Shown here piece after piece: positions 15,897 through 51,263 of a stretch of DNA of 51,263 nt. This DNA comes from a phage. The position numbers and the translations under genes were made by a program. Location: sequence record PZ452599.1. One strand, given 5' to 3'. Every line of letters starts with the position of its first letter. Position 1 is the stretch's first letter. The notes below the pieces were generated by a model, which did not search any database, had not been told where the DNA came from, and was given only the letters and a program-made list of their open reading frames with translations.

Positions 15897-18800
15897 ATGG
15901 CTAAATATATGATAAGTGGCAGTAAAGGGGGCGGTCAAAAGCCCTACGTGCCAAAAGAGATGGAAGATAACCTGATCTCGATAAATAAGATTAAAGTTTT
16001 GCTTGCTGTATCTGATGGCGAGTGCGATCCAAATTTCACGTTGCGCGATCTTTATCTTGATGATGTTCCGGTTATTGCCAGCGATGGCACTGTTAACTAC
16101 GAGGGAGTTACGGCTGAATATCGACCAGGTACGCAGACGCAAGATTACATCCAGGGGTTTACTGACACATCAAGCGAGGTGACAGTTTCGCGAGATATTA
16201 CAGCAGACAATCCTTATGTTATATCTGTAACAAATAAAAATCTTTCTGCGATCAGAATCAAAATTCTGATGCCAGTTGGCATTAAGACAGAGGATAACGG
16301 CGATCTTGTTGGCGTAAGGGTTCAATATGCCGTAGATATGGCTGTTGATGGCGGTTCTTATAACGAGGTTATGAGAGATGTAATTGACGGCAAGACGAGA
16401 TCAGGATATGACCGCAGCAGAAGGATTGATCTTCCTAAGTTTGATGAGCGCGTTTTAATCAGAGTCAAGCGACTGACTCCAGACAGCACATCTTCAAAGG
16501 TGACTGATAAAATCAAACTGCAAAGTTACGCTGAGGTTGTGGATGCAAAATTCCGTTATCCTCTGACTGGCCTTGTATTCGTAGAATTTGACAGCGAATT
16601 GTTTCCTACGCAAATCCCTAACATTTCTATAAAAAAGAAATGGAAGATTATTAATGTGCCAAGCAACTATGATCCAATATCAAGAGAATATCACGGGTCA
16701 TGGGATGGGACTTTTAAAAAAGCGTGGTCAAATAATCCTGCTTGGGTTCTTTATGATCTGGTAACGAATCAGCGTTATGGGCTTGACCAGCGAGAGTTAG
16801 GAATACAGATCGACAAGTGGAGCTTATACGAGGCTGGCGTTTACTGTGATCAGAAAGTTCCAGACGGTAAGGGCGGTACAGAGCCTCGCTACCTATGCGA
16901 TATGGTGATCCAGAATCAGGTTGAGGCTTATCAGCTAATCCGTGACATTTGCTCAATCTTTCGCGGAATGAGCTTTTGGAATGGTGAGAGCTTATCAATC
17001 GTGATTGATAAGCCGCGCGATCCATCATACGTGTTTACTAATGAAAACGTCATCAACGGTGATTTTCAGTACACAACCGCAAGCGAAAAAAGCATGTACA
17101 CGCAGTGTAACGTGACGTTTGACGACGAACAAAACATGTATCAGCAGGACGTAGAGGGGGTTTTTGACACTGAGGCGGCATTACGATTTGGATACAATCC
17201 AACAAGCATTACAGCGATCGGGTGTACACGCAGGAGCGAAGCGAATCGTCGAGGTCGGTGGGTTTTGAAAACAAACCTTAGAAGCACTACTGTAAACTTT
17301 GCTACCGGACTAGAGGGGATGATTCCATCAATAGGTGATGTGATTGCTATCGCTGATAATTTTCAGAGCAGCAATCTAACGTTAAATCTTTCGGGACGAG
17401 TAATGGAAGTTTCAGGCTTGCAAGTTTTCGTTCCGTTTAAAGTTGATGCGCGTCCTGGTGATTTTATTATCATCAATAAGCCGGACGGCAAGCCAGTTAA
17501 GCGAACGATCTCAAAGGTGAGCGCAGACGGAAAAACCATTGAGTTAAATATTGGCTTTGGTTTTGATGTTAAGCCTGATACTGTTTTTGCGATTGACCGT
17601 ACTGACCTTGCGTTGCAGCAATACGTTGTGACAACTATCAGCAAGGGTGATGACGAAAACGAGTTTACCTATTCAATCACGGCTGTGGAGTACGATCCGA
17701 ACAAATACGACGAGATTGATTATGGCGTAAACATTGATGACAGGCCTACTTCAATTGTTCAGCCTGACGTGATGGAAGCGCCGGAGAATGTTCAGATCTC
17801 ATCTTATTCTCGCGTCGTGCAGGGTGTTAGCGTTGAAACTATGGTTGTTTCATGGGATAAGGTTCCTTACGCATCGCTTTATGAAATGCAGTGGCGAAAA
17901 GGTGATGGCAACTGGCTGAATACGCCGCAGACAGCTAACAAAGAGATAGAGGTAGAAGGAATTTACTCAGGGAACTATCAAGTAAGGGTTAGATCTGTTT
18001 CTGCAAGTGGGAACACCTCCCCGTGGTCAAAGATTGCAACCGCCACCCTGACAGGTAAAGTTGGCGAGCCAGGAGCGCCGATTAATCTTACAGCTTCTGA
18101 TAATGAAGTTTTTGGCATTCGTGTTAAATGGGGTATGCCGGAAGGATCAGGCGATACGGCTTACATTGAGCTTCACCAATCGCCAGACGGAACGGTTGAA
18201 AACTCAAGCCTGCTTACGCTGATTCCATATCCTCAATATGAGTATTGGCATAGCACGTTACCAGCGGGTCAAGTTGTATGGTATAGAATCCGTAGCGTTG
18301 ACAGGATCGGCAATGTTTCCGGCTGGACTGACTTTGTTCGCGGCATGGCGTCAGATGATGTTGAATCTGTTTTAGGCGACATTCTGGACAAGATTTTTGA
18401 TACCGAAGCGGGTCAAGAAATCAAAGAGAACGCCATAGACAGTGCCAACAAAATCAAAGACCAGGCGCAATCAATCATCCAGAACGCATTGGCAAACGAT
18501 GCTGATGTGAAATGGACGCGAGTACAAAACGGAAAGCGCAAGGCTGAATATGGTCACGCTCTTGAGCTTATCGCCAACGAAACGGAGGCGCGAGTAACTC
18601 AAATCGAAGAGTTAAAGGCTTCAATTGATGACGATATAGTTTCAAGTATCAAAACCGTTCAGGAAGCGATTGCCAACGAAGCAGAGACGCGAGCTACTCA
18701 AGTTCAGCAGCTTGATTCTAAATTTACGAAGGAAATAGACGGCGTAAAACGAGATACGGCTGCAAGTATTGGTGAGGTAAGGCAAACCATTGCTAATGAA

Positions 18801-19475
18801 TCAGAAGCGCGTGCTCAGGCAGTTCAGCAGCTTGACGCTAAGTTTACGAAAGAGATAAACGACCTTGACGAAGTGATCAAAACCGAAGTCGAGGCTAACA
18901 TCTCAGAAGTGAAACAGGCGATCGCTAATGAGACAGAGGCAAGGGTTCAGGCCGACCAGTCTTTAACAGCTAAATTCGGAGACGTTGAGTCAGCACTAGC
19001 AGAAAAACTTGATTCGTGGGCTAACGTTGATTCGGTTGGCGCTAAGTACGCTATGAAATTGGGCCTTACTTACAAGGGGCAGAAGTACAGCGCAGGAATG
19101 GTAATGCAGCTATCGCAATCGTCGCAGGGGTTGATCTCACAAATCCTTTTCGATGCTAACAGGTTCGCGATCATGACTAGCTCTACTGGCGGTACGTTTA
19201 CATTGCCGTTTGTAGTAGAAAATAACCAGGTGTTTATCAACAGTTTGTTGGTGAAAAACGGGTCCATTACTAACGCAATGATTGGTAACGTGATTCAGTC
19301 AAATAACTTTGTTCAGAATCAGCAAGGATGGAGGCTTGATAAAAATGGTAACTTTGAGAACTACGGAACGAGAGCGGGAGAAGGAGCTACAAAATTCACT
19401 AACGAAGGCTTAAAAGTGAAAGATGCAAATGGACGATTGAGAGTTGAGATAGGGAGAATAACCGGAAGTTGGTAA
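15897..19475 (+). CDS. tail tip / central fiber protein (lambda gpJ-like host specificity protein)
   Basis: 1192 aa from ATG 15897; NPAWVLYDLV gpJ-like motif; C-terminal IANExEAR tandem repeats; followed by bidirectional terminator. Confidence 0.85.
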   Translation: MAKYMISGSKGGGQKPYVPKEMEDNLISINKIKVLLAVSDGECDPNFTLRDLYLDDVPVIASDGTVNYEGVTAEYRPGTQTQDYIQGFTDTSSEVTVSRDITADNPYVISVTNKNLSAIRIKILMPVGIKTEDNGDLVGVRVQYAVDMAVDGGSYNEVMRDVIDGKTRSGYDRSRRIDLPKFDERVLIRVKRLTPDSTSSKVTDKIKLQSYAEVVDAKFRYPLTGLVFVEFDSELFPTQIPNISIKKKWKIINVPSNYDPISREYHGSWDGTFKKAWSNNPAWVLYDLVTNQRYGLDQRELGIQIDKWSLYEAGVYCDQKVPDGKGGTEPRYLCDMVIQNQVEAYQLIRDICSIFRGMSFWNGESLSIVIDKPRDPSYVFTNENVINGDFQYTTASEKSMYTQCNVTFDDEQNMYQQDVEGVFDTEAALRFGYNPTSITAIGCTRRSEANRRGRWVLKTNLRSTTVNFATGLEGMIPSIGDVIAIADNFQSSNLTLNLSGRVMEVSGLQVFVPFKVDARPGDFIIINKPDGKPVKRTISKVSADGKTIELNIGFGFDVKPDTVFAIDRTDLALQQYVVTTISKGDDENEFTYSITAVEYDPNKYDEIDYGVNIDDRPTSIVQPDVMEAPENVQISSYSRVVQGVSVETMVVSWDKVPYASLYEMQWRKGDGNWLNTPQTANKEIEVEGIYSGNYQVRVRSVSASGNTSPWSKIATATLTGKVGEPGAPINLTASDNEVFGIRVKWGMPEGSGDTAYIELHQSPDGTVENSSLLTLIPYPQYEYWHSTLPAGQVVWYRIRSVDRIGNVSGWTDFVRGMASDDVESVLGDILDKIFDTEAGQEIKENAIDSANKIKDQAQSIIQNALANDADVKWTRVQNGKRKAEYGHALELIANETEARVTQIEELKASIDDDIVSSIKTVQEAIANEAETRATQVQQLDSKFTKEIDGVKRDTAASIGEVRQTIANESEARAQAVQQLDAKFTKEINDLDEVIKTEVEANISEVKQAIANETEARVQADQSLTAKFGDVESALAEKLDSWANVDSVGAKYAMKLGLTYKGQKYSAGMVMQLSQSSQGLISQILFDANRFAIMTSSTGGTFTLPFVVENNQVFINSLLVKNGSITNAMIGNVIQSNNFVQNQQGWRLDKNGNFENYGTRAGEGATKFTNEGLKVKDANGRLRVEIGRITGSW
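18560..18980 (+). repeat. imperfect tandem repeats of about 123 bp (3-4 units) inside gpJ-like gene
   Basis: Repeated IANE(T/A/S)EAR...QQLD(S/A)KFTKEI units; clearest pair near 18666-18740 and 18789-18863. Confidence 0.65.
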
Positions 19476-20121: not shown

Positions 20122-20400
20122 TTACCCCCAAAAAGTATATATATATCTTGAGTCAGATCCAGAAAGTCCGCTCCATGTAACAGTATCACCGCTTACACCT
20201 AAACTTGGAGCGCCAGGATCTCCTCCGCGCCACGAACTCATTCCAACATATATTGCTTTCAACGACTTACCTGGCGGCCTGTTTGAGTAGGTCTTACTGC
20301 CAGATGATTGAGTAAATTTATCCAAGAAAAAAACTGGAGTTAAAAGGCCAGTAACATTTCTACCTTGCTCATCATATATTGCATACCCATATTCAGCCAT
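20122..20400 (-). CDS. hypothetical protein; candidate receptor-binding locus component
   Basis: 92 aa; GAGGTG RBS; start overlaps lipoprotein stop; YGYAIYDEQG motif repeated in downstream gene. Confidence 0.35.
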   Translation of the reverse strand: MAEYGYAIYDEQGRNVTGLLTPVFFLDKFTQSSGSKTYSNRPPGKSLKAIYVGMSSWRGGDPGAPSLGVSGDTVTWSGLSGSDSRYIYTFWG

Positions 20401-20674
20401 TTTTGCACCTCAAATCAATGAATTTTCTTTCATCTTGCCAACGGTTGATAAATTTAACTTCTTTATTGTCAACGCTCAACCTGTATTGCTTTTGGCTGAA
20501 TCTGTTTTCGCGGACAGCATTAATTTTAACTTCATGGAATCCGTTAACAGGGAATGTTTTAACGTTAAATTTTGCCGTGCAATCGATCTCCTTGAAGTTA
20601 CCAGTAGGCGAATAAGAACATCCGGTCAGAGCGGCTACGGTGGATATAACTGCGATTAATTTTTTCATCTTCAA
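20393..20674 (-). CDS. outer-membrane lipoprotein, Cor/Llp-like superinfection exclusion candidate
   Basis: 93 aa; signal peptide with lipobox LTGC (MKMKKLIAVISTVAALTGC); first gene of leftward operon driven by a motif-type promoter. Confidence 0.55.
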   Translation of the reverse strand: MKMKKLIAVISTVAALTGCSYSPTGNFKEIDCTAKFNVKTFPVNGFHEVKINAVRENRFSQKQYRLSVDNKEVKFINRWQDERKFIDLRCKNG

Positions 20675-20699
20675 TACCCCTTAGTTGTTGTTGGCTGTA

Positions 20700-20743
20700 A
20701 CTATACACGATCCGGCAAGCCGAGTTTAGCAAAAAGTGCTACT
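20700..20743 (-). promoter_or_regulatory. motif-type promoter (variant GTAGCACTTTTTGCTAAAC plus TATAGT) for lipoprotein operon
   Basis: Motif reverse-complemented on + strand at 20725-20743; -10-like hexamer 18-19 nt downstream on the - strand. Confidence 0.45.
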
Positions 20744-21112
20744 TGTTATTTTTTGTTTTCAGGTGTTATCGGATTTAAGACGGCGTAAATTTAGCGCAAA
20801 TTTTAACCAACATAAGAACAATAAATAATCAATAAAATAGGTATATACATATAAAATCAATAGTTTATTTATTTATGTATGTGTATTTGTTTTTTCTTGT
20901 TATCTGTGTTTCTTGTGGTTTTGGTTGTTTGTGGTGATTTTTCTTTCTGAGTATCTGTGTGTGCCATCATTCATGTGTATGTATATAATCCTGCGTATCT
21001 GAGAGAACAGAGGAACAAGAAAAATAACACATATTAATCATTAATTTACGTGTCAGATTTGTTTTCTTGTCATCTGAGAACGTTTAGAAAACAGAAAAAA
21101 ACAAAACAACTA

Positions 21113-21140
21113 TTGACTAAATCAACCAAATGGCTACAAT
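21113..21140 (+). promoter_or_regulatory. sigma70-like promoter (TTGACT, 16 nt spacer, TACAAT) for the recombination operon
   Basis: Hexamers at 21113-21118 and 21135-21140, about 30 nt upstream of the RBS of gene 21171; A-rich GAACAAGAAAAA box upstream. Confidence 0.55.
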
Positions 21141-21170
21141 GCACACACAAAGCAACGAGGAGCATTAAAG

Positions 21171-22226
21171 ATGAGTGATTTTAACGCCTATACTAGCGAA
21201 GAAATGAGCAATGAGCTTTATCATGATCCTAACGCGTGGACGGCTGAATACGTCAGCGGTTCCAGCCTGGCGGAGATTTACAGCACTTGCCCTGCGTACT
21301 GGAAGTACAAGCCTCGCCAGGAAACCAAAGCACTTGTTTTCGGTACGCAGTCGCATACCAATTTTGAAAGCAAGGAGTTATTCGAAAAAACATATCGCCG
21401 CGCACCGTCGCAGGATGATTTTAAAGATCTGATCACAAGTCAAACGGCGTTGGCCTCAAAGCTGAAATCTTTTGGCCTGAAAGGTACAACGGGTAAGCAA
21501 TACCCCGAATTGCTGGAAATGCTGTACAAGTGCGGTGAGGATCTCAATGTATGGTGGCTTATCGAAATGATGGCAGAATGCCAGGCCGCAGCGGAAGGCG
21601 TGCAGTTAATCGACGCGAAAGATTATGATGCCTGTGTAGCGATGCGGCGCGTACTTGAGGCAATACCTGAGCATAATGCTTGCATGAATAGCCCAACCGC
21701 GCAGCGTGAAATGTCAATATTCGGGATCATCAATGGCGTAAAAGTTAAAGTGCGCCTTGATCACGTTGACGTAAACAAGGATGTAAAGGCCACAATCATT
21801 AACGGTTACGACGAAAAAGGCCGACCTATTTATGAAGAAGTCATCTATCCAGAAGCTGTGATTATAACTGACTATAAAACAACGGTTAGCGCAAATCCGG
21901 TTGACTTCCAGCGTCTGGCTTACAATCACGGCTATTATCTCAAAATGGCTTTGCAACATGATTTATTCAAAAAGGCGTATCCAGACGAGGAAAGACCAGT
22001 AATTGTGAGATTGCTTGCTCAAGAGAAGAAAGAGCCTTACTTGCCGCTCGCATTCCGAATGAACATTGAGCAATTGAAGATCGGGCGTATCCAGTACATG
22101 AGCGTGATCAACAAGTTCAACGTTTGCCAACAGTTAGATGAATGGCCTTCGTATGCAAACGGACAACCAGAAATTGATCTTGATACTCCTGATTGGGTGC
22201 GCGCTCAATTCAGGCAGTATCTATAA
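21171..22226 (+). CDS. putative recombination exonuclease (PD-(D/E)XK superfamily)
   Basis: 351 aa; GAGGAG RBS; RLDHVD...IITDYKTT nuclease-like motifs; first gene after a sigma70-like promoter; upstream of Erf-like and SSB genes. Confidence 0.55.
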   Translation: MSDFNAYTSEEMSNELYHDPNAWTAEYVSGSSLAEIYSTCPAYWKYKPRQETKALVFGTQSHTNFESKELFEKTYRRAPSQDDFKDLITSQTALASKLKSFGLKGTTGKQYPELLEMLYKCGEDLNVWWLIEMMAECQAAAEGVQLIDAKDYDACVAMRRVLEAIPEHNACMNSPTAQREMSIFGIINGVKVKVRLDHVDVNKDVKATIINGYDEKGRPIYEEVIYPEAVIITDYKTTVSANPVDFQRLAYNHGYYLKMALQHDLFKKAYPDEERPVIVRLLAQEKKEPYLPLAFRMNIEQLKIGRIQYMSVINKFNVCQQLDEWPSYANGQPEIDLDTPDWVRAQFRQYL

Positions 22227-23715: not shown

Positions 23716-23748
23716 CAAAAAGCCCCGCATATGCGGGGCATTTTTATT
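23716..23748. terminator. bidirectional intrinsic terminator between ssb and lateral fiber gene
   Basis: A-run, hairpin GCCCCGC-ATAT-GCGGGGC, T-run. Confidence 0.7.
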
Positions 23749-26047
23749 TGAGATCAACAAGTTTTGCAACCATCGACTTTAATTCGTCAACCTCACTTCT
23801 TAGCGATCGCAATTCCTCCTCCTGCTCTTTGCAAACTTGCAATATGTATGCAGTTACCGCTGAGTAGTCAACTTGTAGAAATCTTTCCTTCCCAATAAGT
23901 TCGCTACCGTCTTTTGTTGGGCCATGCAATTGCTGATAATCCTCAAAAGAACTAATAGCCTCCGGCACAACCTCCATGATCTCTTGAGCTATAACTCCAG
24001 CATAAGGCATACCATCTTTCTTTAACGTGTATGTATACCCACTAACTTTCTCAAGACCTAGCCTTGCATTTTCAATTGGTTTAATGTCAGTTTTCAAATC
24101 TCTGTCTGACCCATGGTTAAATGCTGTTGCGTTCACAGGTCCGTTAACTTGCAGGTGTTTAGAGTTATTTGAGTTTAACTGAGCATAGAACACCCATCCA
24201 GGGCCGTTATCGAAACCCCACTCAATAACCGACTGACGATCTGACCCGTTGCCCCACAACTTGAAGGTTGCCGGGTGTGACGAGTTGCCATCGTTCAGCA
24301 TTTTGAAATACTTACCACTCGGTCGGTCTATCTCCAAACTCGCCGCCTGTACATATGCTTTCCCCGCGAAATTCTTAGTTCCGAGTACGACGCCGTCGGT
24401 GATCAATTCAACCCTAGAAGACGTGATGTCGTTCAGAAACAGGGCGCTCGTTCCGGTGTCCTTCCCTAAAAACCAAAGACGTGTGCCTGCGGAGTTGTAC
24501 CCTGTTACATGCAGTGGTTGGTTGTTTGTTGACGCTGTTCCGTCGATACGAAAACCGCCATTGGCTGTTGTAACTTTAAGGCTGGGTACGGTCATAGCGA
24601 ATGCGCCACTGGCCGCAAGGCCGTTATACGCGATCAGCTTGTTGTCATACGCAAACTCACCATTGTCGCGCATTTGTAGCGCTTTCTGCGACGTCCTGTT
24701 GCGAATGCCAACATCAGATCCGCCAACAAACATCTCAACAATTCTAGACCCGCTTTTAGCTCTTACATAAGCATTAAATTCAGGAGACGACCCCGCGTTA
24801 TACAACTCGTACCATTGCGACCAGTTGCCAGTAGCAGCGTTACTAAGCCATCGCATAAAACGACGCCCGCTGCTGAATGTTGTATACGTCTGTATGCAGC
24901 TTTTAGGATCGTTAGCGCCAGTGCGCTGAACAAGTAGGCAGCCTGCCGCCTGAATGGGATAATTACGCTCCGGCGTTGCGCTGGCAGACGTGCTAGTATA
25001 ATAAAATCCAGCCTTATCGCCCTGAAGAACGTTAAGATCTTCGCTTACCAACGATGCCTGTCGCTCGTGCATTGCCTGAAGGTTTTTTCTCGCGCCCTGG
25101 TCGTTCGATGCGCCTGTCCCGCCGTCCCCGATCGCCACGTCACCGTTAGCACCCAGCTTCGCCAGTTCAATGGCGCCCACATTTCCAGATGAGCCGTTAA
25201 TCGCGGCATTGTTTCCAGCGAAAACCTTCACGCGAGATGTCTGGTAGTCAACGTTAAACGCAAAAAATGTGTCACCAGCCCCGCCGCACACCCCTGGACC
25301 ATACCTGAACGGCGTCATATCGCCAGAAGGGAACTGCGTAATATCATCGACGCGCCAGAATCCTCCTTTGACAGTATCGCGCAACCGCTTGAGCATATCC
25401 CTTACGCCAGTCGGCGCAGGTAATGTTACACCCGCATACGGCACTCTATTTTGAGCTTCTGAACTTTCAGCAGCAGCCGCTGCGCGATCAGCTTCTGTTT
25501 TAGCCTTGTTTGCACTGTTTGCAGCATTAGTTTCAGATGTTTTGGCGTTTGTCTCAGAAGTCTTCGCGGCACTAGCCGAGTTAGCAGCATTAGTTTCCGA
25601 TGTTTTAGCGTTTGTCTCAGAAGTCTTCGCAGCGCTGGCGCTTTGTTTTGCTGATTCAGCGCCTTGTTTCACCTGATTTACAAGATCTTTCAACCCATCA
25701 AGATCGAAATCTTTAAAAAATTCAAGTGCGTCAGCGATCTCCGTTTCCTTGCTTTGATAGTAACGCAGTGTTTCCGCTACGTCCTGCGCCAGCCCGTCAA
25801 CCGTTAACGAGTCATGAAGCAAGATCAGGTAATTTGTCTTTTGGACTACCGCGCCGCCAGTAGTAATTGCGCGAATGCTTGTATCGCTAATCACCTCTGT
25901 AATCACAGCAGCTTGCAAAGGTTGAGTAAGAAAGAAAATAGTTGCACCTGGGCGAATCAATGTTAATTGCTCACGCCATTTTGTATCGTAACCAGTTACA
26001 TAACCTTGCGCGTCCATAGACGCTTGGCCTTGTCTGTAAATCGCCAT
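23744..26047 (-). CDS. lateral tail fiber with C-terminal intramolecular chaperone (S74-like) domain
   Basis: 767 aa from ATG 26047 (GGAGG RBS); tandem [22 protein letters not shown] repeat; C-terminal [13 protein letters not shown] with [11 protein letters not shown]...VDYSAV resembling auto-cleaving chaperone domains of tail fibers. Confidence 0.7.
25521..25646 (-). repeat. tandem 63-bp direct repeat (2 copies) inside lateral fiber gene
   Basis: 25521-25583 and 25584-25646 are about 90 percent identical; encode [22 protein letters not shown] twice. Confidence 0.8.
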
Positions 26048-26065
26048 TTGTAAAATCCTCCTAAA

Positions 26066-26097
26066 TAGCACTTTTTGCTAATGACAATGCAGATAAT
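26066..26097 (+). promoter_or_regulatory. motif copy (variant TAGCACTTTTTGCTAATGAC) adjacent to lateral fiber start
   Basis: Plus-oriented copy whose reverse complement abuts the fiber RBS; GATAAT at 26092-26097; direction of action unresolved. Confidence 0.35.
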
Positions 26098-27614: not shown

Positions 27615-27626
27615 CTAGTCACCTCA

Positions 27627-27669
27627 TAGCATTTTTTGTTAAAACAGTTTATTGTAATGAGTCTATTAT
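27627..27669 (+). promoter_or_regulatory. motif-type promoter for helicase operon in divergent region
   Basis: TAGCATTTTTTGTTAAAAC at 27627-27645, 18-nt spacer, TATTAT 27664-27669; the same motif abuts the RBS of divergent gene 27138-27614. Confidence 0.5.
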
Positions 27670-27701
27670 ATACTCCAAATGGCATTTTTTAAAGGTTTAA
27701 G

Positions 27702-29699
27702 ATGATTCCAAATATCGAAAAACAAATATCAGCGTTAGGCGAGTCAGTAATAAAAAGCATCCAAGAGCGATTCACGGTTGGCAATATAGTGCCTTATCCT
27801 TATCAGTGCGTTGCGTATGCCGAGATCGCAAAGCGCATGAAAAACTATGAGCATCCTTTCTTTGTTAAGGCTTCTGTGTCGGCTGGTAAAACATTGATGT
27901 TTGCGATGGTTGCGGCGCAATGCCGCAAGATGGGATTGAAAATGATGGTCCTTGCTCGCCAGGCTGAAATTGTTGATCAGGATTCAGAAGAGATCAGCAA
28001 TCTTGGCGTGCCAAACTCAATCTATTGCGCCGGACTGAAAACAAAAAGCGCATACTTTCCGATCGTAGTCGGTTCTGAGGGCACTGTAGTAAACGGATTG
28101 TTTAAGTCGTTAGGTGATTATGTTCCGCACGTTATCGGTATTGATGAATGTCACCAGGTGGATTGGGAGGATCTCGCTGATGCGATAGAAAATAATGAAT
28201 CTTACCAGCAGATGACCACTAAGAAGGATTTGCCTGTACTGATTGGAGAAGAACAGCAATTTGATTCCAATGGCGATCCAATGTTCGGAACAGGGCGCAC
28301 ACAGTACACCGTAATAATCATGGAAATGATGCGCAGGTGTCGCGAGGCATACGGGCACGAATTGCGAATATTCGGTATGACTGGATCTGAGTTTCGCGGC
28401 GTGGTTCCAATACTGGTTGAAGATAAGAACAAAAAGGGATTCTGGCGTGAGCAGGTGACTAACATAGACACAAACTACTTAATCAAATTTGGCTCGGTAG
28501 TGCCAACAAATTTCGGCGACGTAGGCGATCTGGGGTATGACCTTTCAGAGTTCGAAGCCAGTAGCGAGGATGGCGTTTCAGACTTTGACGCTAAAACATT
28601 GCGCAAGATGGAAGAAAAGATCCATCAAGACGCAACAATGACACAGAAAATCATGGCTAAAGTCCATGAGATATGCAAAGACAGGAACGGAGTTTTAGTT
28701 ACATGCGCAGGGGAAAGACACTGCAAGGAGGCCGCCGCCGCACTGCCGCCAGGCGTTGAATACAGGATCATAACTGGCAAGACTGGAGATAATCAGCGTA
28801 AAGAGTGGCTGAGGGAGGCATACGAGGGAAAAGTAAAATACATCTTCCAGGTACAGGCGCTTACCACTGGCGTTAACGTTCCGTTTTGGGATACTTCGGT
28901 AATACTGAGAAAGATAGGATCTCTAACATTGCTTATCCAGCTTTTGGGGCGCGGTATGCGACTGCTTAAGCAATGGCACATTGAGCAGGGATTCAAGAAA
29001 AAAGACCATCTTGTATTGGATTTTGCCGGTACTATGGATGAGTTAGGGGATTTGTATTTCGATCCAATCCTTGAGCAAGCGCAATTCCAAAAGAGATTTA
29101 CAAACGGGAAAGAGCCTAAGACTTGTCCGATATGTGGAACGCTAAACAGCTTTTACGCTCGCCGATGTATGCACGTAGACGATAACGGGAAGAGATGCGA
29201 GCATTTTTGGACTTACAGAATTTGCGAGGACCAGGTAGATCCGAGAACGAAAAAGATAATCAAGCGCGGTTGCGGAACAAAAAACGACGTAGTGGCGAGA
29301 GTATGCCGTTGTTGCGATATTTCTCTTGTCGATCCTAACGAGAAGTTAAGCGGCAAGCACTACACCAAAAACGATTGGTGCAACGTTAAATCTTTCCGCG
29401 TTGATATGACGAAAAACCAGAAAGGAATTGTTTTTTGCTATGAGCTTGAGGCCAACGGCGACACGTTCAAGGCATACGAAAGATTTTTCCCTGAGTCAGA
29501 AAGCAACATTTGCCGGACGATATGGAGAAAAATAGCATTGCAGCACATACCGGATCGCAAGATTGCTGGTATGGTGGCGAGCTATAGAAATGCGCGTAAA
29601 ATAATGTCATACGCTCATCACATCATGCCTCCTGTACGCGTAACGCATCGCAAAAACGGCAAAGGTGAGGATAACATTGCAAAACGGGAGTTTGTTTAA
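27702..29699 (+). CDS. SF2 DNA helicase (DExH-box) with C-terminal Cys-rich zinc-finger region
   Basis: 665 aa; Walker A SVSAGKT, Walker B GIDECHQ; C-terminal CPICG...CxxC clusters. Confidence 0.75.
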   Translation: MIPNIEKQISALGESVIKSIQERFTVGNIVPYPYQCVAYAEIAKRMKNYEHPFFVKASVSAGKTLMFAMVAAQCRKMGLKMMVLARQAEIVDQDSEEISNLGVPNSIYCAGLKTKSAYFPIVVGSEGTVVNGLFKSLGDYVPHVIGIDECHQVDWEDLADAIENNESYQQMTTKKDLPVLIGEEQQFDSNGDPMFGTGRTQYTVIIMEMMRRCREAYGHELRIFGMTGSEFRGVVPILVEDKNKKGFWREQVTNIDTNYLIKFGSVVPTNFGDVGDLGYDLSEFEASSEDGVSDFDAKTLRKMEEKIHQDATMTQKIMAKVHEICKDRNGVLVTCAGERHCKEAAAALPPGVEYRIITGKTGDNQRKEWLREAYEGKVKYIFQVQALTTGVNVPFWDTSVILRKIGSLTLLIQLLGRGMRLLKQWHIEQGFKKKDHLVLDFAGTMDELGDLYFDPILEQAQFQKRFTNGKEPKTCPICGTLNSFYARRCMHVDDNGKRCEHFWTYRICEDQVDPRTKKIIKRGCGTKNDVVARVCRCCDISLVDPNEKLSGKHYTKNDWCNVKSFRVDMTKNQKGIVFCYELEANGDTFKAYERFFPESESNICRTIWRKIALQHIPDRKIAGMVASYRNARKIMSYAHHIMPPVRVTHRKNGKGEDNIAKREFV

Positions 29700-30118: not shown

Positions 30119-30158
30119 CACTTTTTGTTAAAACTGGCGCGATGGATTGCGCCATAAT
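30116..30158 (+). promoter_or_regulatory. motif-type promoter (motif, 18-nt hairpin spacer, CATAAT)
   Basis: TAGCACTTTTTGTTAAAAC 30116-30134; spacer hairpin GGCGC...GCGCC; CATAAT 30153-30158; upstream of dam. Confidence 0.5.
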
Positions 30159-31186: not shown

Positions 31187-31229
31187 TAGCACTTTTTGTT
31201 AAAACGCCCGGCCTAGTGTCGGGCATAAT
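31187..31229 (+). promoter_or_regulatory. motif-type promoter
   Basis: Motif 31187-31205; spacer hairpin GCCCG...CGGGC; CATAAT 31224-31229; upstream of gene 31262. Confidence 0.5.
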
Positions 31230-34403: not shown

Positions 34404-34448
34404 AATATACCCGACAATAGGTCGGGCGTTTTAACAAAAAATGCTATT
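34404..34448 (-). promoter_or_regulatory. motif-type promoter
   Basis: Motif variant (AAAAAATGCTATT) 34428-34448; spacer hairpin CCCGAC...GTCGGG; TATATT -10; upstream of gene 34143-34367. Confidence 0.45.
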
Positions 34449-37240: not shown

Positions 37241-37284
37241 TTATGCCAGGTTTTTACACCTGGCTTTTAACAAAAAGTGCTATT
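37241..37284 (-). promoter_or_regulatory. motif-type promoter
   Basis: Motif 37264-37284; spacer hairpin GCCAGG...CCTGGC; CATAAT -10; upstream of gene 36824-37210. Confidence 0.5.
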
Positions 37285-41214: not shown

Positions 41215-41248
41215 TGCTATCTCCTGAGCGGTTCGTTTTGATGTGTGT

Positions 41249-41293
41249 AATGTACCCGATCAGACGACCTGAGTTTTAACAAAAAGTGCTATT
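41249..41293 (-). promoter_or_regulatory. motif-type promoter with conserved leader
   Basis: Motif 41273-41293; TACATT -10; leader ACACACATCAAAACGAACCG; upstream of gene 40942-41214. Confidence 0.5.
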
Positions 41294-41322
41294 TGACGGT
41301 TAGCGCCAGGATTGTGATCGAA

Positions 41323-41413
41323 ATAATCAGAAGTAATCATTCGTAATCAAATCACGTCAAAATGATGATTGCCTTTGCAAATTTGATGAGAAAAGTAATC
41401 ACGTTTAATCATT
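41323..41413. repeat. cluster of short GTAATCA / TAATCA iteron-like repeats
   Basis: At least five copies in 90 bp inside the 600-bp non-coding region; a related TTAATCATTAAT element occurs at about 21035-21047. Confidence 0.45.
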
Positions 41414-41831
41414 GGTTGCAGGGGAGATAGTGAAACCTTCCCCTCTTGCCTCACTTTTCCGCCTGGCTGTCAGTGGTTGTTATGTTCCGTTCCCACGTGT
41501 TTTTTTGTTGACCTTCCGCAAAATACGATAACAAAAAATAACAAACAATACCTATATAATACATTGAAAAATAAGGATTATTTATTTATATGTATCTATA
41601 TATTCTCTTTTGTTATCTTGGTTATTGTGGTATTTGGTGGGGGTATATAGTTTTTGTGTATCTGTATGTGTGTATGGGTATGTAGGGGCATATATATCTA
41701 TATGGCGCTTTCCGCGCGAAAACTTCGATAACAGGCAATGATAACATTGATTTATAAGGAAAAATAACGCCCATATTGTTATTGTGCCACCATATAAAAT
41801 TGATAAAACACGCGGGAACAAGAAAAAACAG

Positions 41832-41860
41832 TTGACACATTAAATAGCATTATTGATAAT
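41832..41860 (+). promoter_or_regulatory. sigma70 consensus-like promoter (TTGACA, 17 nt spacer, GATAAT) for the rightward early operon
   Basis: Hexamers at 41832-41837 and 41855-41860; GGAACAAGAAAAA box immediately upstream; RBS and ATG 41889 follow. Confidence 0.6.
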
Positions 41861-41888
41861 GCCCACACCTAACAACCAGGAGGCAGAA

Positions 41889-42353
41889 ATGAGCGAGCAA
41901 TCATTCACTGACACGCTGCGCCGTGCCGCTATTATGCTGGCTAACGGCGAGGAAGAGACGATCAAGATTCCTGACGCGTATTTGCAGGTCCACATGTTCG
42001 GCAAGAAGTCGGCAAGCAATCCGGCGGCCTACATTCGCCAGATCATGAGTCGAGTGCCAGAAGTCGCCGAGCGGGGGCGCGTATCCGTTACCCGTGGCGT
42101 TTACGGGCCGGAAGATGAAAACTTCGGTAGCACTTTCTACGAGGTGCGGATTGTTGAAGGTCGCCGCAAGGTTTACAACAAAGAGGCACTGGAAAGGGCA
42201 GTACGCCAGGCCAAGCGCAAAGTTGCAGAGGCGATCATTGATATGTCACCCAACCTGGCAAACTATGAGCCGGAAGAGTACGAAACATTATCAAAGGCCG
42301 TCGCTGACTTTCACGCGATGATCAAAAAAACTTTCCTGGAGGATGAGCAATGA
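41889..42353 (+). CDS. hypothetical early protein
   Basis: 154 aa from ATG 41889 (AGGAGG RBS); first gene after canonical promoter 41832-41860. Confidence 0.55.
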   Translation: MSEQSFTDTLRRAAIMLANGEEETIKIPDAYLQVHMFGKKSASNPAAYIRQIMSRVPEVAERGRVSVTRGVYGPEDENFGSTFYEVRIVEGRRKVYNKEALERAVRQAKRKVAEAIIDMSPNLANYEPEEYETLSKAVADFHAMIKKTFLEDEQ

Positions 42354-42613: not shown

Positions 42614-42653
42614 CACTTTTTGTTAAAACGCCAGGTGCAAAGCCTGGCATAAT
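42611..42653 (+). promoter_or_regulatory. motif-type promoter
   Basis: Motif 42611-42629 (begins with stop codon of lipoprotein gene); spacer hairpin GCCAGG...CCTGGC; CATAAT 42648-42653. Confidence 0.5.
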
Positions 42654-47320: not shown

Positions 47321-47358
47321 CACGAATTGCTAAACGCGGGGCGCAATGCCTCGCTATA
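47321..47358 (+). promoter_or_regulatory. variant motif (TAGCACGAATTGCTAAAC) followed by TATAAT
   Basis: Begins with kinase stop TAG; TATAAT at 47353-47358; upstream of gene 47391. Confidence 0.4.
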
Positions 47359-50736: not shown

Positions 50737-51263
50737 ATGGCTAAAAACGTTGAGCCTGCTGTAAAGGCATTAAATTTCAAAGAGTTATACAATAAAACTT
50801 ATGGCGATATTGTTACGCTAAACAACCGCCACAAGTACACGCCGGAACAGGTTTTTGATATGGCGATCCGCTATTTCACTTGGGCCGAAGAGAATCACAT
50901 CCAGGCGGCTGAAACTGCTTCCTTTCAGGGTGACGTGTACGAGAGCAGAGTTTACAAGCCTCGCGTTTTCACGGTTAACGGATTCAGCTTGTATCTCGGC
51001 GTGACTGAGGCCGCCGTAAGCAAATGGCGTAAAGAGCCTGGATTCTGCGATGTGATGGAGTTTGTTGATAAAGTAATTTACGAGCAAAAATTCCAGCTTG
51101 CGGCAAATAACATGATTAACGCTGGATTTATCGGTAAAGAGATCGGAGTAGAGAAGCCAGCAACAGTGAGCGTTGAAGCGAGCGCGGCAGCTAATGCAAG
51201 CATTGACGCAGTAACTGCCGATGAGGTGAAAGAGGCTGTGATTGATATTCTGGAGCAACTTTA
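50737..51263 (+). CDS. terS: terminase small subunit (3' end completed only if window ends are joined)
   Basis: AAAGGAGGA RBS; 175 codons to window end; final TA plus position 1 A forms TAA overlapping terL ATG; HTH-like FSLYLGVTEAAVSKW segment. Confidence 0.6.
   Translation, partial: MAKNVEPAVKALNFKELYNKTYGDIVTLNNRHKYTPEQVFDMAIRYFTWAEENHIQAAETASFQGDVYESRVYKPRVFTVNGFSLYLGVTEAAVSKWRKEPGFCDVMEFVDKVIYEQKFQLAANNMINAGFIGKEIGVEKPATVSVEASAAANASIDAVTADEVKEAVIDILEQL

What the first reader, a model, noticed from the sequence alone, without database searches (positions are those of the whole stretch)
20675..21170. 500-bp non-coding control region with GT-rich repeats, TAATCATTAAT element and A-tract box upstream of a sigma70-like promoter
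This is the largest gap in the left half of the genome and separates the leftward lipoprotein operon from the rightward recombination operon. It holds repeated TTCTTGT(T/C)ATCTG and TGTGTATCTGT blocks, a GAACAAGAAAAA box, and the promoter TTGACT-16-TACAAT. It shares extended similarity with the second control region at 41294-41888, so the two look like duplicated regulatory modules.
Basis: seen in the sequence. Interest (0 to 1): 0.5.

Follow-up and report, generated by a model that had tools for sequence, protein, structure and literature searches.

The report
Twin easily-melted non-coding phage modules
This 500-bp gap in a T1-like coliphage genome is a real, conserved control region made of two promoters plus a module that occurs twice per genome and is the easiest DNA in the genome to melt; that module may be the still-unmapped replication origin of T1-like phages.

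Summary
The window is a complete T1-like phage genome (Drexlerviridae, Warwickvirus). Region 20675-21170 has no credible ORF and no RNA family hit. It resembles 41215-41889 far more than shuffled sequence does (z about 21).

The similarity has three separate sources:
1. A leftward copy of the known 21-nt T1-like direct repeat. I find it always sits exactly 18 nt from a -10 hexamer, so it looks like a phage-specific promoter element.
2. The known sigma70 early promoters, equivalent to P51 and P01 of phage TLS.
3. A two-copy core of about 155 bp (20808-20963 and 41519-41670) that I did not find described in the papers I could search.

The core has an A-rich arm, a TATA centre and a T-rich arm, followed by a G+T-rich stretch. 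Its TATA centres are the two least stable duplex segments in the genomes of this phage, TLS, T1 and Rtp. The T-rich arm is under purifying selection. A 17-bp box is almost confined to the two regions. The two copies stay alike within each genome but cannot be aligned between subfamilies.

Best reading (0.4): paired origin-like unwinding elements recognised by a phage-specific factor. Main rival (0.3): an upstream architectural or regulatory region of the early promoters. A structured RNA and a small peptide are rejected.

The parts
20675..21170 (.). Non-coding region A, between the leftward lipoprotein gene and the rightward exonuclease VIII-like gene (ATG at 21171). The lipoprotein gene's likely ATG is at 20668; the mechanical ORF list gives a TTG at 20674.
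   Evidence: The region is conserved in 146 phage records, and 122 of them cover at least 80% of it.
20700..20705 (-). -10 hexamer TATAGT of the leftward direct-repeat-type promoter.
   Evidence: It lies exactly 18 nt from the direct repeat, as in 15 of the 17 repeat copies. AACTATACA is invariant or nearly so in 10 phages.
20724..20744 (-). Leftward copy of the T1-like 21-nt direct repeat: AAGTAGCACTTTTTGCTAAAC.
   Evidence: Repeat families D1/D2. Consensus aaATAGCACnnnTTGnTAAAA is given in PMC11447400.
20744..20760 (-). 17-bp A-rich box, copy 1: GAAAACAAAAAATAACA.
   Evidence: 7 genome matches against 0.88 expected, and 6 of them lie in regions A and B.
20808..20963 (+). Two-copy core module, paralogous to 41519-41670.
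20832..20871 (.). TATA-rich centre. It is the least stable 40-bp duplex in the genome, tied with 41563-41602.
   Evidence: Nearest-neighbour free-energy scan. GC content is 0.17.
20855..20867 (+). AATCAATAGTTTA, an exact match to the IHF core consensus WATCAANNNNTTR.
   Evidence: One of only 5 matches in the genome. It is conserved in about 60% of the aligned copies. IHF binding is inferred only.
20872..20925 (+). T-rich arm, with TGTT repeated at a period of about 10 bp. It contains box copy 2 at 20888-20904 (-), GATAACAAGAAAAAACA.
   Evidence: Identity to other genera is 0.70-0.85, against 0.45-0.55 at third codon positions of the neighbouring gene. Box.
20926..20985 (+). Variable G+T-rich stretch. 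The 120-nt window starting at 20863 is 81% G+T, the highest in the genome.
   Evidence: Length and sequence vary among relatives.
21012..21024 (+). GGAACAAGAAAAA, a partial box. Its only other exact copy is at 41815.
21036..21048 (+). AATCATTAATTTA, an IHF-like core with 1 mismatch.
   Evidence: Most relatives carry ATCAANNNNCTTA at this position. Binding is inferred.
21058..21074 (-). Box copy 3: GATGACAAGAAAACAAA.
21087..21103 (+). Box copy 4, GAAAACAGAAAAAAACA, at the UP-element position upstream of the -35 hexamer.
21113..21140 (+). sigma70 early promoter of the exonuclease operon: TTGACT-16-TACAAT. It is equivalent to TLS P51.
   Evidence: TATTGACTAAA and GCTAnAAT are invariant in 10 phages. 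TLS promoter table.
41249..41294 (-). Region B leftward direct-repeat-type promoter: repeat at 41274-41294, 18-nt spacer, and -10 hexamer TACATT at 41249-41254.
41324..41411 (+). Segment present only in region B, with five TAATCA repeats (41324, 41334, 41344, 41396, 41406) spaced 10 bp apart within each cluster. It is the likely packaging (pac) / genome-end region.
   Evidence: The deposited T1, TLS, Rtp, haarsle and PHB17 records start inside the equivalent gap. PMC7718038 places pac there.
41519..41670 (+). Core module, copy B. It holds a box at 41527-41543 (+), TATAAT at 41555-41560, the TATA centre at 41563-41602, and then the T-rich and G+T-rich arms.
   Evidence: Against phage tonijn, the stretch from the TATAAT/TATA centre into the T-arm (about 41550-41625) is an island of conservation between diverged flanks.
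41814..41860 (+). Box GGGAACAAGAAAAAACA directly abutting the sigma70 promoter TTGACA-17-GATAAT. Equivalent to TLS P01.

Best explanation
Region A is a composite control region with three parts.

At the left edge, a phage-specific promoter (21-nt direct repeat, 18-nt spacer, -10 hexamer) drives the leftward lipoprotein gene. At the right edge, a host sigma70 early promoter with an A-rich upstream box drives the exonuclease/annealing-protein/SSB operon.

Between them lies a core module that every T1-like genome examined carries twice: here, and next to the genome end. I propose that this module is an origin-like DNA-unwinding element.
- Its TATA centre is the easiest duplex in the genome to open.
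- The centre is flanked by A-rich/T-rich arms that carry short boxes (the GAWAACA/TGTT family in this subfamily, TGTAACA in T1), which a phage-encoded protein would recognise.
- Opening would be helped by negative supercoiling behind the adjacent promoters, and possibly by RNA polymerase binding the conserved TATAAT in the centre.
- Opening would let the phage helicase and primase load, either directly or through an R-loop on the G+T-rich side.

Shown: the anatomy, the copy number, the helix instability, the selection, the confinement of the boxes to the two regions, and the within-genome similarity of the copies. Inferred: protein binding, melting in vivo, and any role in replication.
For: 1. 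The module is a discrete two-copy element. A profile built from 10 region-A homologues finds exactly two places in the window, and also finds the region-B copies of other phages. A profile built from A and B copies finds exactly two places in TLS.

2. At window sizes of 40, 80 and 150 bp, the two least stable duplex segments of the whole genome are the two module centres. The same two genomic positions hold the two least stable segments in T1 and in TLS and Rtp, with z of 4.4-5.2. This covers three subfamilies.

3. Sequence, not only composition, is constrained. T-arm identity is 0.70-0.85, against 0.45-0.55 at third codon positions of the adjacent gene. Between this phage and tonijn, the stretch from the TATAAT/TATA centre into the T-arm of copy B stays about 90% identical while both flanks have diverged.

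4. Short boxes are confined to the regions.
- The 17-bp box has 7 genome matches against 0.88 expected, and 6 of them are in regions A and B.
- In T1, all 6 genomic TGTAACA sites lie in the two regions; in region A they bracket the TATA centre.

5. The A and B copies resemble each other within each genome: 72-83% identity, z 7-31. The A copies of different subfamilies are not alignable (z 0.5-2.1), although all four phages infect E. coli. This points to a lineage-specific trans-acting factor or to gene conversion.

6. No origin has been found for T1-like phages by searches for oriC-like or lambda-like features (PMC11447400; PMC7718038), so the role is vacant.

7. Precedents, from my own knowledge and not tested here:
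- SPP1 has two sequence-related origins, oriL and oriR, each with initiator boxes next to an AT-rich stretch.
- T4 oriF and oriG consist of a promoter followed by an unwinding element.
- The lactococcal phage c2 origin lies in the gap between divergent early and late promoters.
Against: - There is no direct evidence of replication initiation here.
- The boxes are degenerate and their exact consensus is lineage-restricted. TLS has none within 3 mismatches in its two regions.
- The inverted-repeat brackets around the core are only patchily significant, with z from 0.9 to 4.8.
- The module is 5-14 kb from the primase and helicase genes, whereas many phage origins lie in or next to the initiator gene.
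- There are no DnaA boxes above chance.
- Cumulative GC skew follows gene orientation and cannot separate replication from transcription.
- The same box also sits at the UP-element position of both early promoters. That fits a purely transcriptional role equally well.
Confidence: 0.4

Rival explanations
1. The module is an upstream architectural or regulatory region of the two early promoters. The A-rich boxes would be UP-like or factor-binding sites, and together with IHF-type bends they would build a nucleoprotein complex. The easily melted centre would act as a supercoil-sensitive element that tunes or times the adjacent sigma70 and direct-repeat-type promoters. This is comparable to the upstream activating regions of rrnB P1 or ilvPG.
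For: - The box abuts the -35 hexamer of both sigma70 promoters (21087-21103 and 41814-41830).
- These are two of only three intergenic sigma70-consensus promoters in this genome and in TLS.
- An IHF core consensus lies in region A in 3 of the 4 genomes, against about 0.1 expected per genome.
- A second IHF-like site at 21036 is conserved.
- In this phage both regions are divergent promoter regions, where negative supercoils would accumulate.
Against: - The third early promoter (27692, - strand) sits in an 87-bp gap with no such module, so the module is not needed for an early promoter.
- The centre lies 250-270 bp upstream of the -35 hexamers, far for UP or class I effects.
- Sites read only by host factors should stay alike among phages of the same host, yet the modules are subfamily-specific.
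- In TLS and P-K7R, region A has no leftward gene, but the module persists.
Confidence: 0.3
2. The module is a recombination or gene-exchange element: a G+T-rich, easily invaded stretch that serves as a preferred site for the phage's own recombination system, or as a homology anchor for swapping early-gene cassettes. A link to packaging is possible for copy B.
For: - Many relatives of the same genus match region B only up to about 41640-41645.
- The tonijn alignment shows a mosaic junction right after the T-arm.
- Within-genome similarity of A and B could reflect gene conversion.
- Copy A sits directly upstream of the exonuclease/Erf/SSB operon.
- Copy B lies about 100-150 bp from the probable packaging-site / genome-end segment.
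Against: - There is no Chi site and no excess of one-mismatch Chi variants.
- Copy A has no packaging-type TAATCA array.
- A junction next to a conserved island is also what any essential cis-element flanked by exchangeable DNA would produce.
Confidence: 0.12
3. The G+T-rich strand is expressed, either as a non-coding RNA or as a tiny hydrophobic peptide (MYVYLFFLVICVSCGFGCLW in A; MYLYILFCYLGYCGIWWGYIVFVYLYVCMGM in B).
For: - Both copies hold a short ORF beginning MY(V/L)Y.
- A consensus TATAAT lies upstream in copy B and in most other modules.
Against: - The ATG is absent in most homologues, and indels are not multiples of three.
- There is no Shine-Dalgarno sequence in copy A.
- Rfam gives nothing at gathering thresholds and only chance-level hits at E<=1.
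- Folding z-scores are 0.03 and -0.41.
- RNAalifold predicts 0 conserved pairs over 16 modules.
- There is no intrinsic terminator and no -35 element.
Confidence: 0.05

Closest known systems
21-nt direct repeats and sigma70 promoters P51/P01 of phage TLS (Drexlerviridae; PMC11447400)
   Same: The left edge of region A is a copy of that repeat, and the right edge is the counterpart of P51. Region B holds the counterpart of P01.
   Different: That paper leaves the repeat's function open and does not describe the two-copy core module. Here the repeat is shown to sit exactly 18 nt from a -10 hexamer in 15 of 17 copies.
Bacillus phage SPP1 oriL/oriR (own knowledge, not tested here)
   Same: SPP1 is a headful-packaging (pac) siphovirus with two distant, sequence-related cis-regions, each combining short repeated boxes with an adjacent AT-rich stretch.
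   Different: In SPP1 the boxes are bound by a known initiator (G38P), and oriL lies inside its gene. Here no initiator is identified, both copies are intergenic, and replication function is untested.
Phage T4 oriF(uvsY)/oriG(34) and the T7 primary origin (own knowledge)
   Same: These combine a promoter element with a downstream unwinding element, and an origin can occur more than once per genome. Here a conserved TATAAT sits at the edge of the least stable DNA, followed by a G+T-rich non-template strand that would favour an R-loop.
   Different: No -35 element or activator box has been defined, and no transcript or R-loop has been shown.
Upstream activating regions of strong E. coli promoters: rrnB P1 (UP element plus Fis sites) and ilvPG (IHF plus a supercoil-destabilised upstream element) (own knowledge)
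   Same: There are A-rich boxes at the UP position of both early promoters, IHF-consensus sites, and a highly destabilisable stretch upstream.
   Different: The distance is 250-270 bp. The sequence is phage-lineage-specific rather than shaped by host factors. The third early promoter lacks the module.
Lactococcal phage c2 origin (own knowledge)
   Same: It is a non-coding gap of about 500 bp between divergent transcription units that serves as the origin and depends on transcription from an adjacent promoter.
   Different: It is present once per genome, and there is no sequence relationship.

Membership tests
Replication origin (unwinding element plus initiator boxes) | AT-rich DNA-unwinding element of minimal helix stability | tested here: met
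   The two modules rank first and second for lowest duplex stability in the window, T1, TLS and Rtp.
Replication origin (unwinding element plus initiator boxes) | Repeated initiator-binding sites next to the unwinding element | tested here: inconclusive
   Boxes confined to the two regions exist, but they are degenerate and lineage-restricted. No binding protein is known.
Replication origin (unwinding element plus initiator boxes) | Initiation of DNA synthesis maps to the element, or the element supports replication | not testable with these tools
   This needs marker-frequency sequencing, 2D gels or a plasmid-amplification assay.
Host DnaA-dependent origin (oriC type) | Cluster of DnaA boxes (TTWTNCACA) | tested here: not met
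   There are no exact boxes in the regions, and one-mismatch boxes occur at chance level in all four genomes.
sigma70 promoter with UP-like element | -35 and -10 hexamers at 16-18 bp spacing, conserved, with an A-rich -40 to -60 region | tested here: met
   TTGACT-16-TACAAT matches 10 of 12. The hexamers are invariant in 10 phages. The A-rich box is at 21087-21103. The transcription start site is not mapped.
T1-like 21-nt direct repeat (aaATAGCACnnnTTGnTAAAA) | Consensus sequence, intergenic position, orientation in the direction of transcription, about 76 nt upstream of a start codon | tested here: met
   20724-20744 (-) reads AAGTAGCACTTTTTGCTAAAC, with mismatches only at the first and last positions of the core consensus. 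It points toward the leftward gene, whose ATG lies about 76 nt downstream (PMC11447400).
Structured non-coding RNA / sRNA | Conserved secondary structure, a promoter and a terminator | tested here: not met
   There is no real Rfam hit. Folding z-scores are about 0. RNAalifold predicts 0 consensus pairs. There is no terminator.
Small protein-coding gene | Conserved start codon and reading frame | tested here: not met
   The ATG at 20875 is absent in most relatives, and indels break the frame.
Packaging (pac) site region | Location at the physical genome end, with terminase-type repeat arrays | tested here: not met
   The TAATCA array and the deposited genome ends map only to region B. Region A lacks that segment.
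IHF-dependent supercoil-destabilised upstream activator (ilvPG type) | IHF site within or next to a destabilised upstream element, close enough to act on the promoter | tested here: inconclusive
   An exact IHF core lies at 20855, next to the TATA centre, but only about 60% of copies keep it. The promoter is about 260 bp away.

The most novel reading that the evidence does not exclude
T1-like phages carry two co-evolving, lineage-specific origin elements, one beside the genome end and one beside the recombination operon. A phage-encoded protein would read short boxes flanking the genome's most meltable DNA, and firing would be coupled to early transcription. If so, this would locate the origins of the T1 family, which are still unmapped, and explain why the two copies stay alike within each genome.
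Probability: 0.35. Interest if true: 0.6.

Novelty: new member of a known kind. Interest (0 to 1): 0.42.

Why it matters
T1 is one of the classic T phages and a notorious laboratory contaminant. Even so, recent re-annotations state that no origin of replication could be found, and they list the function of the intergenic repeats as an open question (PMC11447400, PMC7718038).

This analysis gives two concrete, bounded candidate sequences per genome, each about 150 bp. They are conserved in position across three subfamilies and can be tested directly by deletion, marker-frequency sequencing or plasmid assays.

It also sharpens the picture of T1-type transcription. There are only three host-type promoters. 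A separate class of about 17 promoters is defined by the 21-nt repeat at a fixed 18-nt distance from a -10 hexamer. That geometry is too long for an ordinary -35 element and so implies a phage-encoded factor.

Tried and rejected
- Structured RNA: rejected. There is no real Rfam hit, folding z-scores are about 0, and RNAalifold finds no consensus pairs over 16 modules.
- DNA hairpin or cruciform at the A-arm/T-arm dyad: weak. The z-score is -1.1 for copy A and -2.85 for copy B, and there is no covariation.
- Hydrophobic mini-ORFs: rejected, because neither start codon nor frame is conserved.
- Tandem repeats: only trivial two-copy arrays.
- DnaA boxes, Chi sites and GATC clustering in the modules: none. 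GATC is depleted there.
- Long inverted repeats bracketing the module (transposon-like ends): only short boxes, inconsistently significant.
- GC-skew mapping of an origin: uninformative, because skew follows gene orientation.
- Looking for a replication or regulatory protein with a hypervariable domain that tracks the module type: nothing decisive.
- Literature: searches for an origin, transcript map or any description of this gap in T1-like phages found nothing beyond the TLS and SU57 papers.

Full report
**What the window is**

The 51,263-bp window is a complete T1-like siphovirus genome, rotated to start at the large terminase gene. Region 20600-21250 is 97% identical to Escherichia phages tonijn and vB_EcoS-95, and 85 phage records match it by megablast. 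Relatives are classified as Drexlerviridae, Tempevirinae, Warwickvirus.

The finding lies between two genes.
- On the left is a leftward gene with a lipoprotein signal. The ORF list gives 20393-20674, but the likely ATG is at 20668, preceded by AAGGGG.
- On the right is a rightward PD-(D/E)XK exonuclease gene starting at 21171. Homologous records annotate it as exonuclease VIII.

**Check of the observation**

- TTCTTGTYATCTG occurs exactly twice and only here.
- GGAACAAGAAAAA occurs once here and once in the second gap.
- TTGACT-16-TACAAT is at 21113-21140.
- TGTGTATCTGT is exact only in the second gap, but near-matches cluster in both gaps on the + strand.

The gap has no ORF of 50 codons or more.

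- The proposed intervals align with score 60, against 21.6 +/- 3.0 for dinucleotide shuffles.
- The best local alignment, 20808-20963 against 41519-41670, scores 79 against 22 +/- 2.6.
- With a stricter control that shuffles within 20-nt blocks, it still gives z = 7.9, with 72% identity over 164 columns.

**The similarity has three sources**

First, the left ends of both gaps carry CAAAAAGTGCTA. This belongs to a family of about 18 copies spread over the genome and oriented with transcription. It is the 21-nt direct repeat aaATAGCACnnnTTGnTAAAA described for TLS, T1 and Rtp, whose function the TLS authors list as an open question (PMC11447400).

I aligned the 17 strict copies in this genome. 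In 15 of them the repeat (ending ...TAAAAC) is followed by exactly 18 nt and then a -10-like hexamer such as CATAAT, TATAAT, TACATT or TATAGT. The TTGnTA inside the repeat is therefore 22 nt from the -10 hexamer, too far for a normal -35 element. The repeat looks like the upstream element of a phage-specific promoter class.

In region A the leftward copy is at 20724-20744, and its -10 hexamer TATAGT is at 20700-20705. Both are conserved in ten phages from five genera.

Second, the right ends of both gaps are host-type promoters: TTGACT-16-TACAAT and TTGACA-17-GATAAT. They correspond to P51 and P01 of TLS, where only three sigma70 promoters were found.

My own scan gives the same picture. Fifteen sites match at least 10 of 12 consensus positions, and the intergenic ones are these:
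- 21113 (+);
- 27692 (-);
- 41832 (+);
- one further site at 20961 (+), inside region A.

Third, between these lies a core that truly exists in two copies.
- A profile built from ten region-A homologues finds exactly two places in the window (the second at E = 2.8e-13). It also finds the region-B copies of other phages.
- A combined A+B profile finds exactly two places in TLS.

**Anatomy of the core**

Reading rightward, the core consists of:
- an A-rich arm;
- a TATA-rich centre (20832-20871);
- a T-rich arm (20872-20925) in which TGTT recurs about every 10 bp;
- a variable stretch that is 81% G+T;
- a second short alternating TG/TA run;
- a GC-rich clamp.

GAWAACAAGAAAAAACA with up to 3 mismatches has 7 matches in the genome, against 0.88 +/- 1.02 expected (0 of 100 shuffles reach 7). 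Six of the seven lie in the two gaps:
- 20744 (-), 20888 (-), 21058 (-) and 21087 (+) in region A;
- 41527 (+) and 41814 (+) in region B.

The copies at 21087 and 41814 sit directly upstream of the -35 hexamers. The copies at 41527 (+) and 20888 (-) form the arms around the TATA centres. This explains why the profile also hits the minus strand of the same place.

**Properties that make the core stand out**

*Helix stability.* With nearest-neighbour energies, the two least stable segments in the whole genome at 40, 80 and 150 bp are the two module centres. The same holds for T1 at the equivalent positions, and for TLS and Rtp with z of 4.4-5.2. So the property is conserved in position across Tempevirinae, Tunavirinae and Braunvirinae.

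*Strand asymmetry.* The two modules are also the two most G+T-rich 120-nt windows of this genome: 0.81 and 0.76, against 0.50 +/- 0.056.

*Selection.* Against seven phages of other genera (the same-genus FritzSarasin is excluded), the T-arm keeps 0.70-0.85 identity. Third codon positions of the adjacent exonuclease gene keep 0.45-0.55. The other parts of the gap are near that neutral level, apart from the two promoter segments: the sigma70 segment keeps 0.75-0.85, and the repeat-promoter segment keeps 0.76-0.87 in the four nearer phages but only 0.52-0.61 in the three most distant.

Between this phage and tonijn, the left part of gap B is 98% identical. The flanks of the module have diverged. 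The stretch from the TATAAT/TATA centre into the T-arm remains an island of about 90% identity.

*Co-variation of the two copies.* Within each of four genomes, A and B align significantly:
- window: 72% identity;
- TLS: 73%;
- T1: 76%;
- Rtp: 83% over 123 columns, z = 31.

The A copies of different subfamilies do not align (window against T1, z = 2.1; window against Rtp, z = 0.5).

In T1 the short site confined to the regions is different. All six TGTAACA in the genome lie in the two gaps, and in gap A they bracket the TATA centre.

All four phages infect E. coli. A module read only by host proteins should therefore not be subfamily-specific. The pattern suggests either a phage-encoded reader or gene conversion between the copies.

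**What it is not**

- It is not a known RNA. Rfam finds nothing at gathering thresholds and only chance-level hits at E <= 1.
- It is not a structured RNA. Folding z-scores are 0.03 and -0.41. RNAalifold finds no consensus pair in 16 modules. There is no terminator.
- It is not a peptide gene. Both copies contain a short hydrophobic ORF beginning MY(V/L)Y. However, the start codon is missing in most homologues and indels break the frame.
- It is not an oriC-type origin, because DnaA boxes occur only at chance level. It has no Chi sites, and GATC is under-represented in it.
- The dyad of the arms does not give a convincing hairpin.

**How region A differs from region B**

Gap B has an extra segment of about 190 bp (41300-41490). 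It carries five TAATCA repeats, spaced 10 bp apart within each of two clusters.

The deposited T1, TLS, Rtp, haarsle and PHB17 genomes begin inside the equivalent gap. The SU57 paper states that the packaging (pac) site of T1-like phages lies in this untranslated region. Gap B therefore equals gap A plus a probable packaging-site / genome-end segment.

**Most likely mechanism**

I favour, at 0.4, an origin-like unwinding element. The arguments are:
- the most meltable DNA of the genome is flanked by boxes confined to the two regions;
- part of it is under sequence-level selection;
- it is present twice;
- it is kept matched within a genome;
- it sits where transcription from adjacent promoters would underwind it.

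Most copies also hold a consensus TATAAT without a -35 element at the edge of the centre, followed by a G+T-rich non-template strand. This would suit transcription-primed initiation of the kind known in T4, T7 and lactococcal phage c2. The two-copy layout has a precedent in SPP1 oriL/oriR. These comparisons rest on my own knowledge. None of the functional steps was tested.

The main rival, at 0.3, is an upstream architectural region of the early promoters.
- For it: the same box occupies the UP position of both promoters, and IHF-consensus cores occur in region A in three of four genomes.
- Against it: the third early promoter has no such module, the distance is large, and the sequence is lineage-specific.

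A recombination or mosaic-junction role (0.12) is suggested by the breakpoint right after the T-arm in many relatives. Such a breakpoint is equally expected beside any essential cis-element.

**Novelty and verdict**

The two promoter types at the edges are already in the literature, but only as in-silico features. I did not find the two-copy core, or its properties, described in any paper I could search.

Whatever its role, it would be a new member of a known kind of element (a phage origin or a control region), not a new category. Interest is moderate. The analysis turns an acknowledged gap in T1 biology into a directly testable proposal, but function remains inferred.

Noticed in passing
window 1566, 6209, 9963, 27626, 30115, 31186, 34447, 37283, 39482, 39988, 41292, 42610, 43073, 44291, 45815, 47317, 48611 (repeat start, either strand), plus 20744: In 15 of 17 copies the 21-nt T1-like direct repeat is followed by exactly 18 nt and then a -10-like hexamer. 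The embedded TTGnTA is therefore 22 nt from the -10 hexamer. This looks like a phage-specific, probably activator-dependent, promoter class. The published description leaves its function open.
   Followed up: partly
window 30135-30152, 31206-31223, 34410-34427, 37246-37264, 42630-42647, 47336-47354: In about six of these promoters the 18-nt spacer is itself a GC-rich inverted repeat (for example GCCAGGTGCAAAGCCTGGC). Read on the opposite strand, this is a hairpin followed by GTTTTAAC, so the element might also terminate transcription coming from the other direction.
   Followed up: no
window 41300-41490: This segment is present only in gap B. It holds five TAATCA repeats at 41324, 41334, 41344 and at 41396, 41406, spaced 10 bp apart within each cluster, along with TGATGA-type inverted copies and a GATC. 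ATTGGTTGCAGGGG at about 41411 resembles the T1 record junction ...GTGATT|GTTGCATGG. This is the probable packaging (pac) / genome-end region.
   Followed up: partly
window 27615-27701: This is a third divergent gap, only 87 bp long. It holds a sigma70-like leftward promoter (TTAAAA-16-TATAAT at 27692, - strand), the counterpart of TLS P57, for the Cro-like HTH gene and the primase. It also holds a rightward direct-repeat-type promoter at 27626 for the SF2 helicase. There is no core module here.
   Followed up: partly
window 20961-20989: GTGCCA-17-TATAAT matches 10 of 12 consensus positions inside region A, about 150 bp upstream of the exonuclease-operon promoter. The TATAT part is conserved but the -35 part is not. 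It could be a weak second rightward promoter, or chance.
   Followed up: no
window about 41625-41645, compared with L020 (tonijn) and the hits: More than 20 relatives of the same genus match gap B only up to this point, and their downstream sequence, including the promoter region, is different. This marks a recurrent mosaic junction right after the T-arm of module B.
   Followed up: partly
whole window: GATC occurs 311 times, against about 200 expected from length alone, but it is under-represented in the two gaps (3 sites, about 7 expected). In T1 and TLS, GATC sites cluster next to the genome end. The phage family encodes a Dam-type methylase.
   Followed up: no
window 25517-25639 and 18664-18861: There are in-gene direct repeats: two 60-nt copies 63 nt apart at 90% identity inside the long leftward ORF 23744-26071 (tail-fibre position by synteny with T1), and two 78-nt copies 120 nt apart at 76% identity inside the 1209-aa tail-tip ORF.
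   Followed up: no
window 50737-51263 and position 1: The record is a circular permutation that starts at the ATG of the large terminase gene. The small terminase ORF (start about 50737) runs to the end of the window, so it is missing from the mechanical ORF list.
   Followed up: no
L017 (Rtp) 28042-28165 and 169-292: The two Rtp modules are 83% identical over 123 columns, much closer to each other than the two copies in the other genomes. This suggests recent gene conversion between the copies in that lineage.
   Followed up: partly
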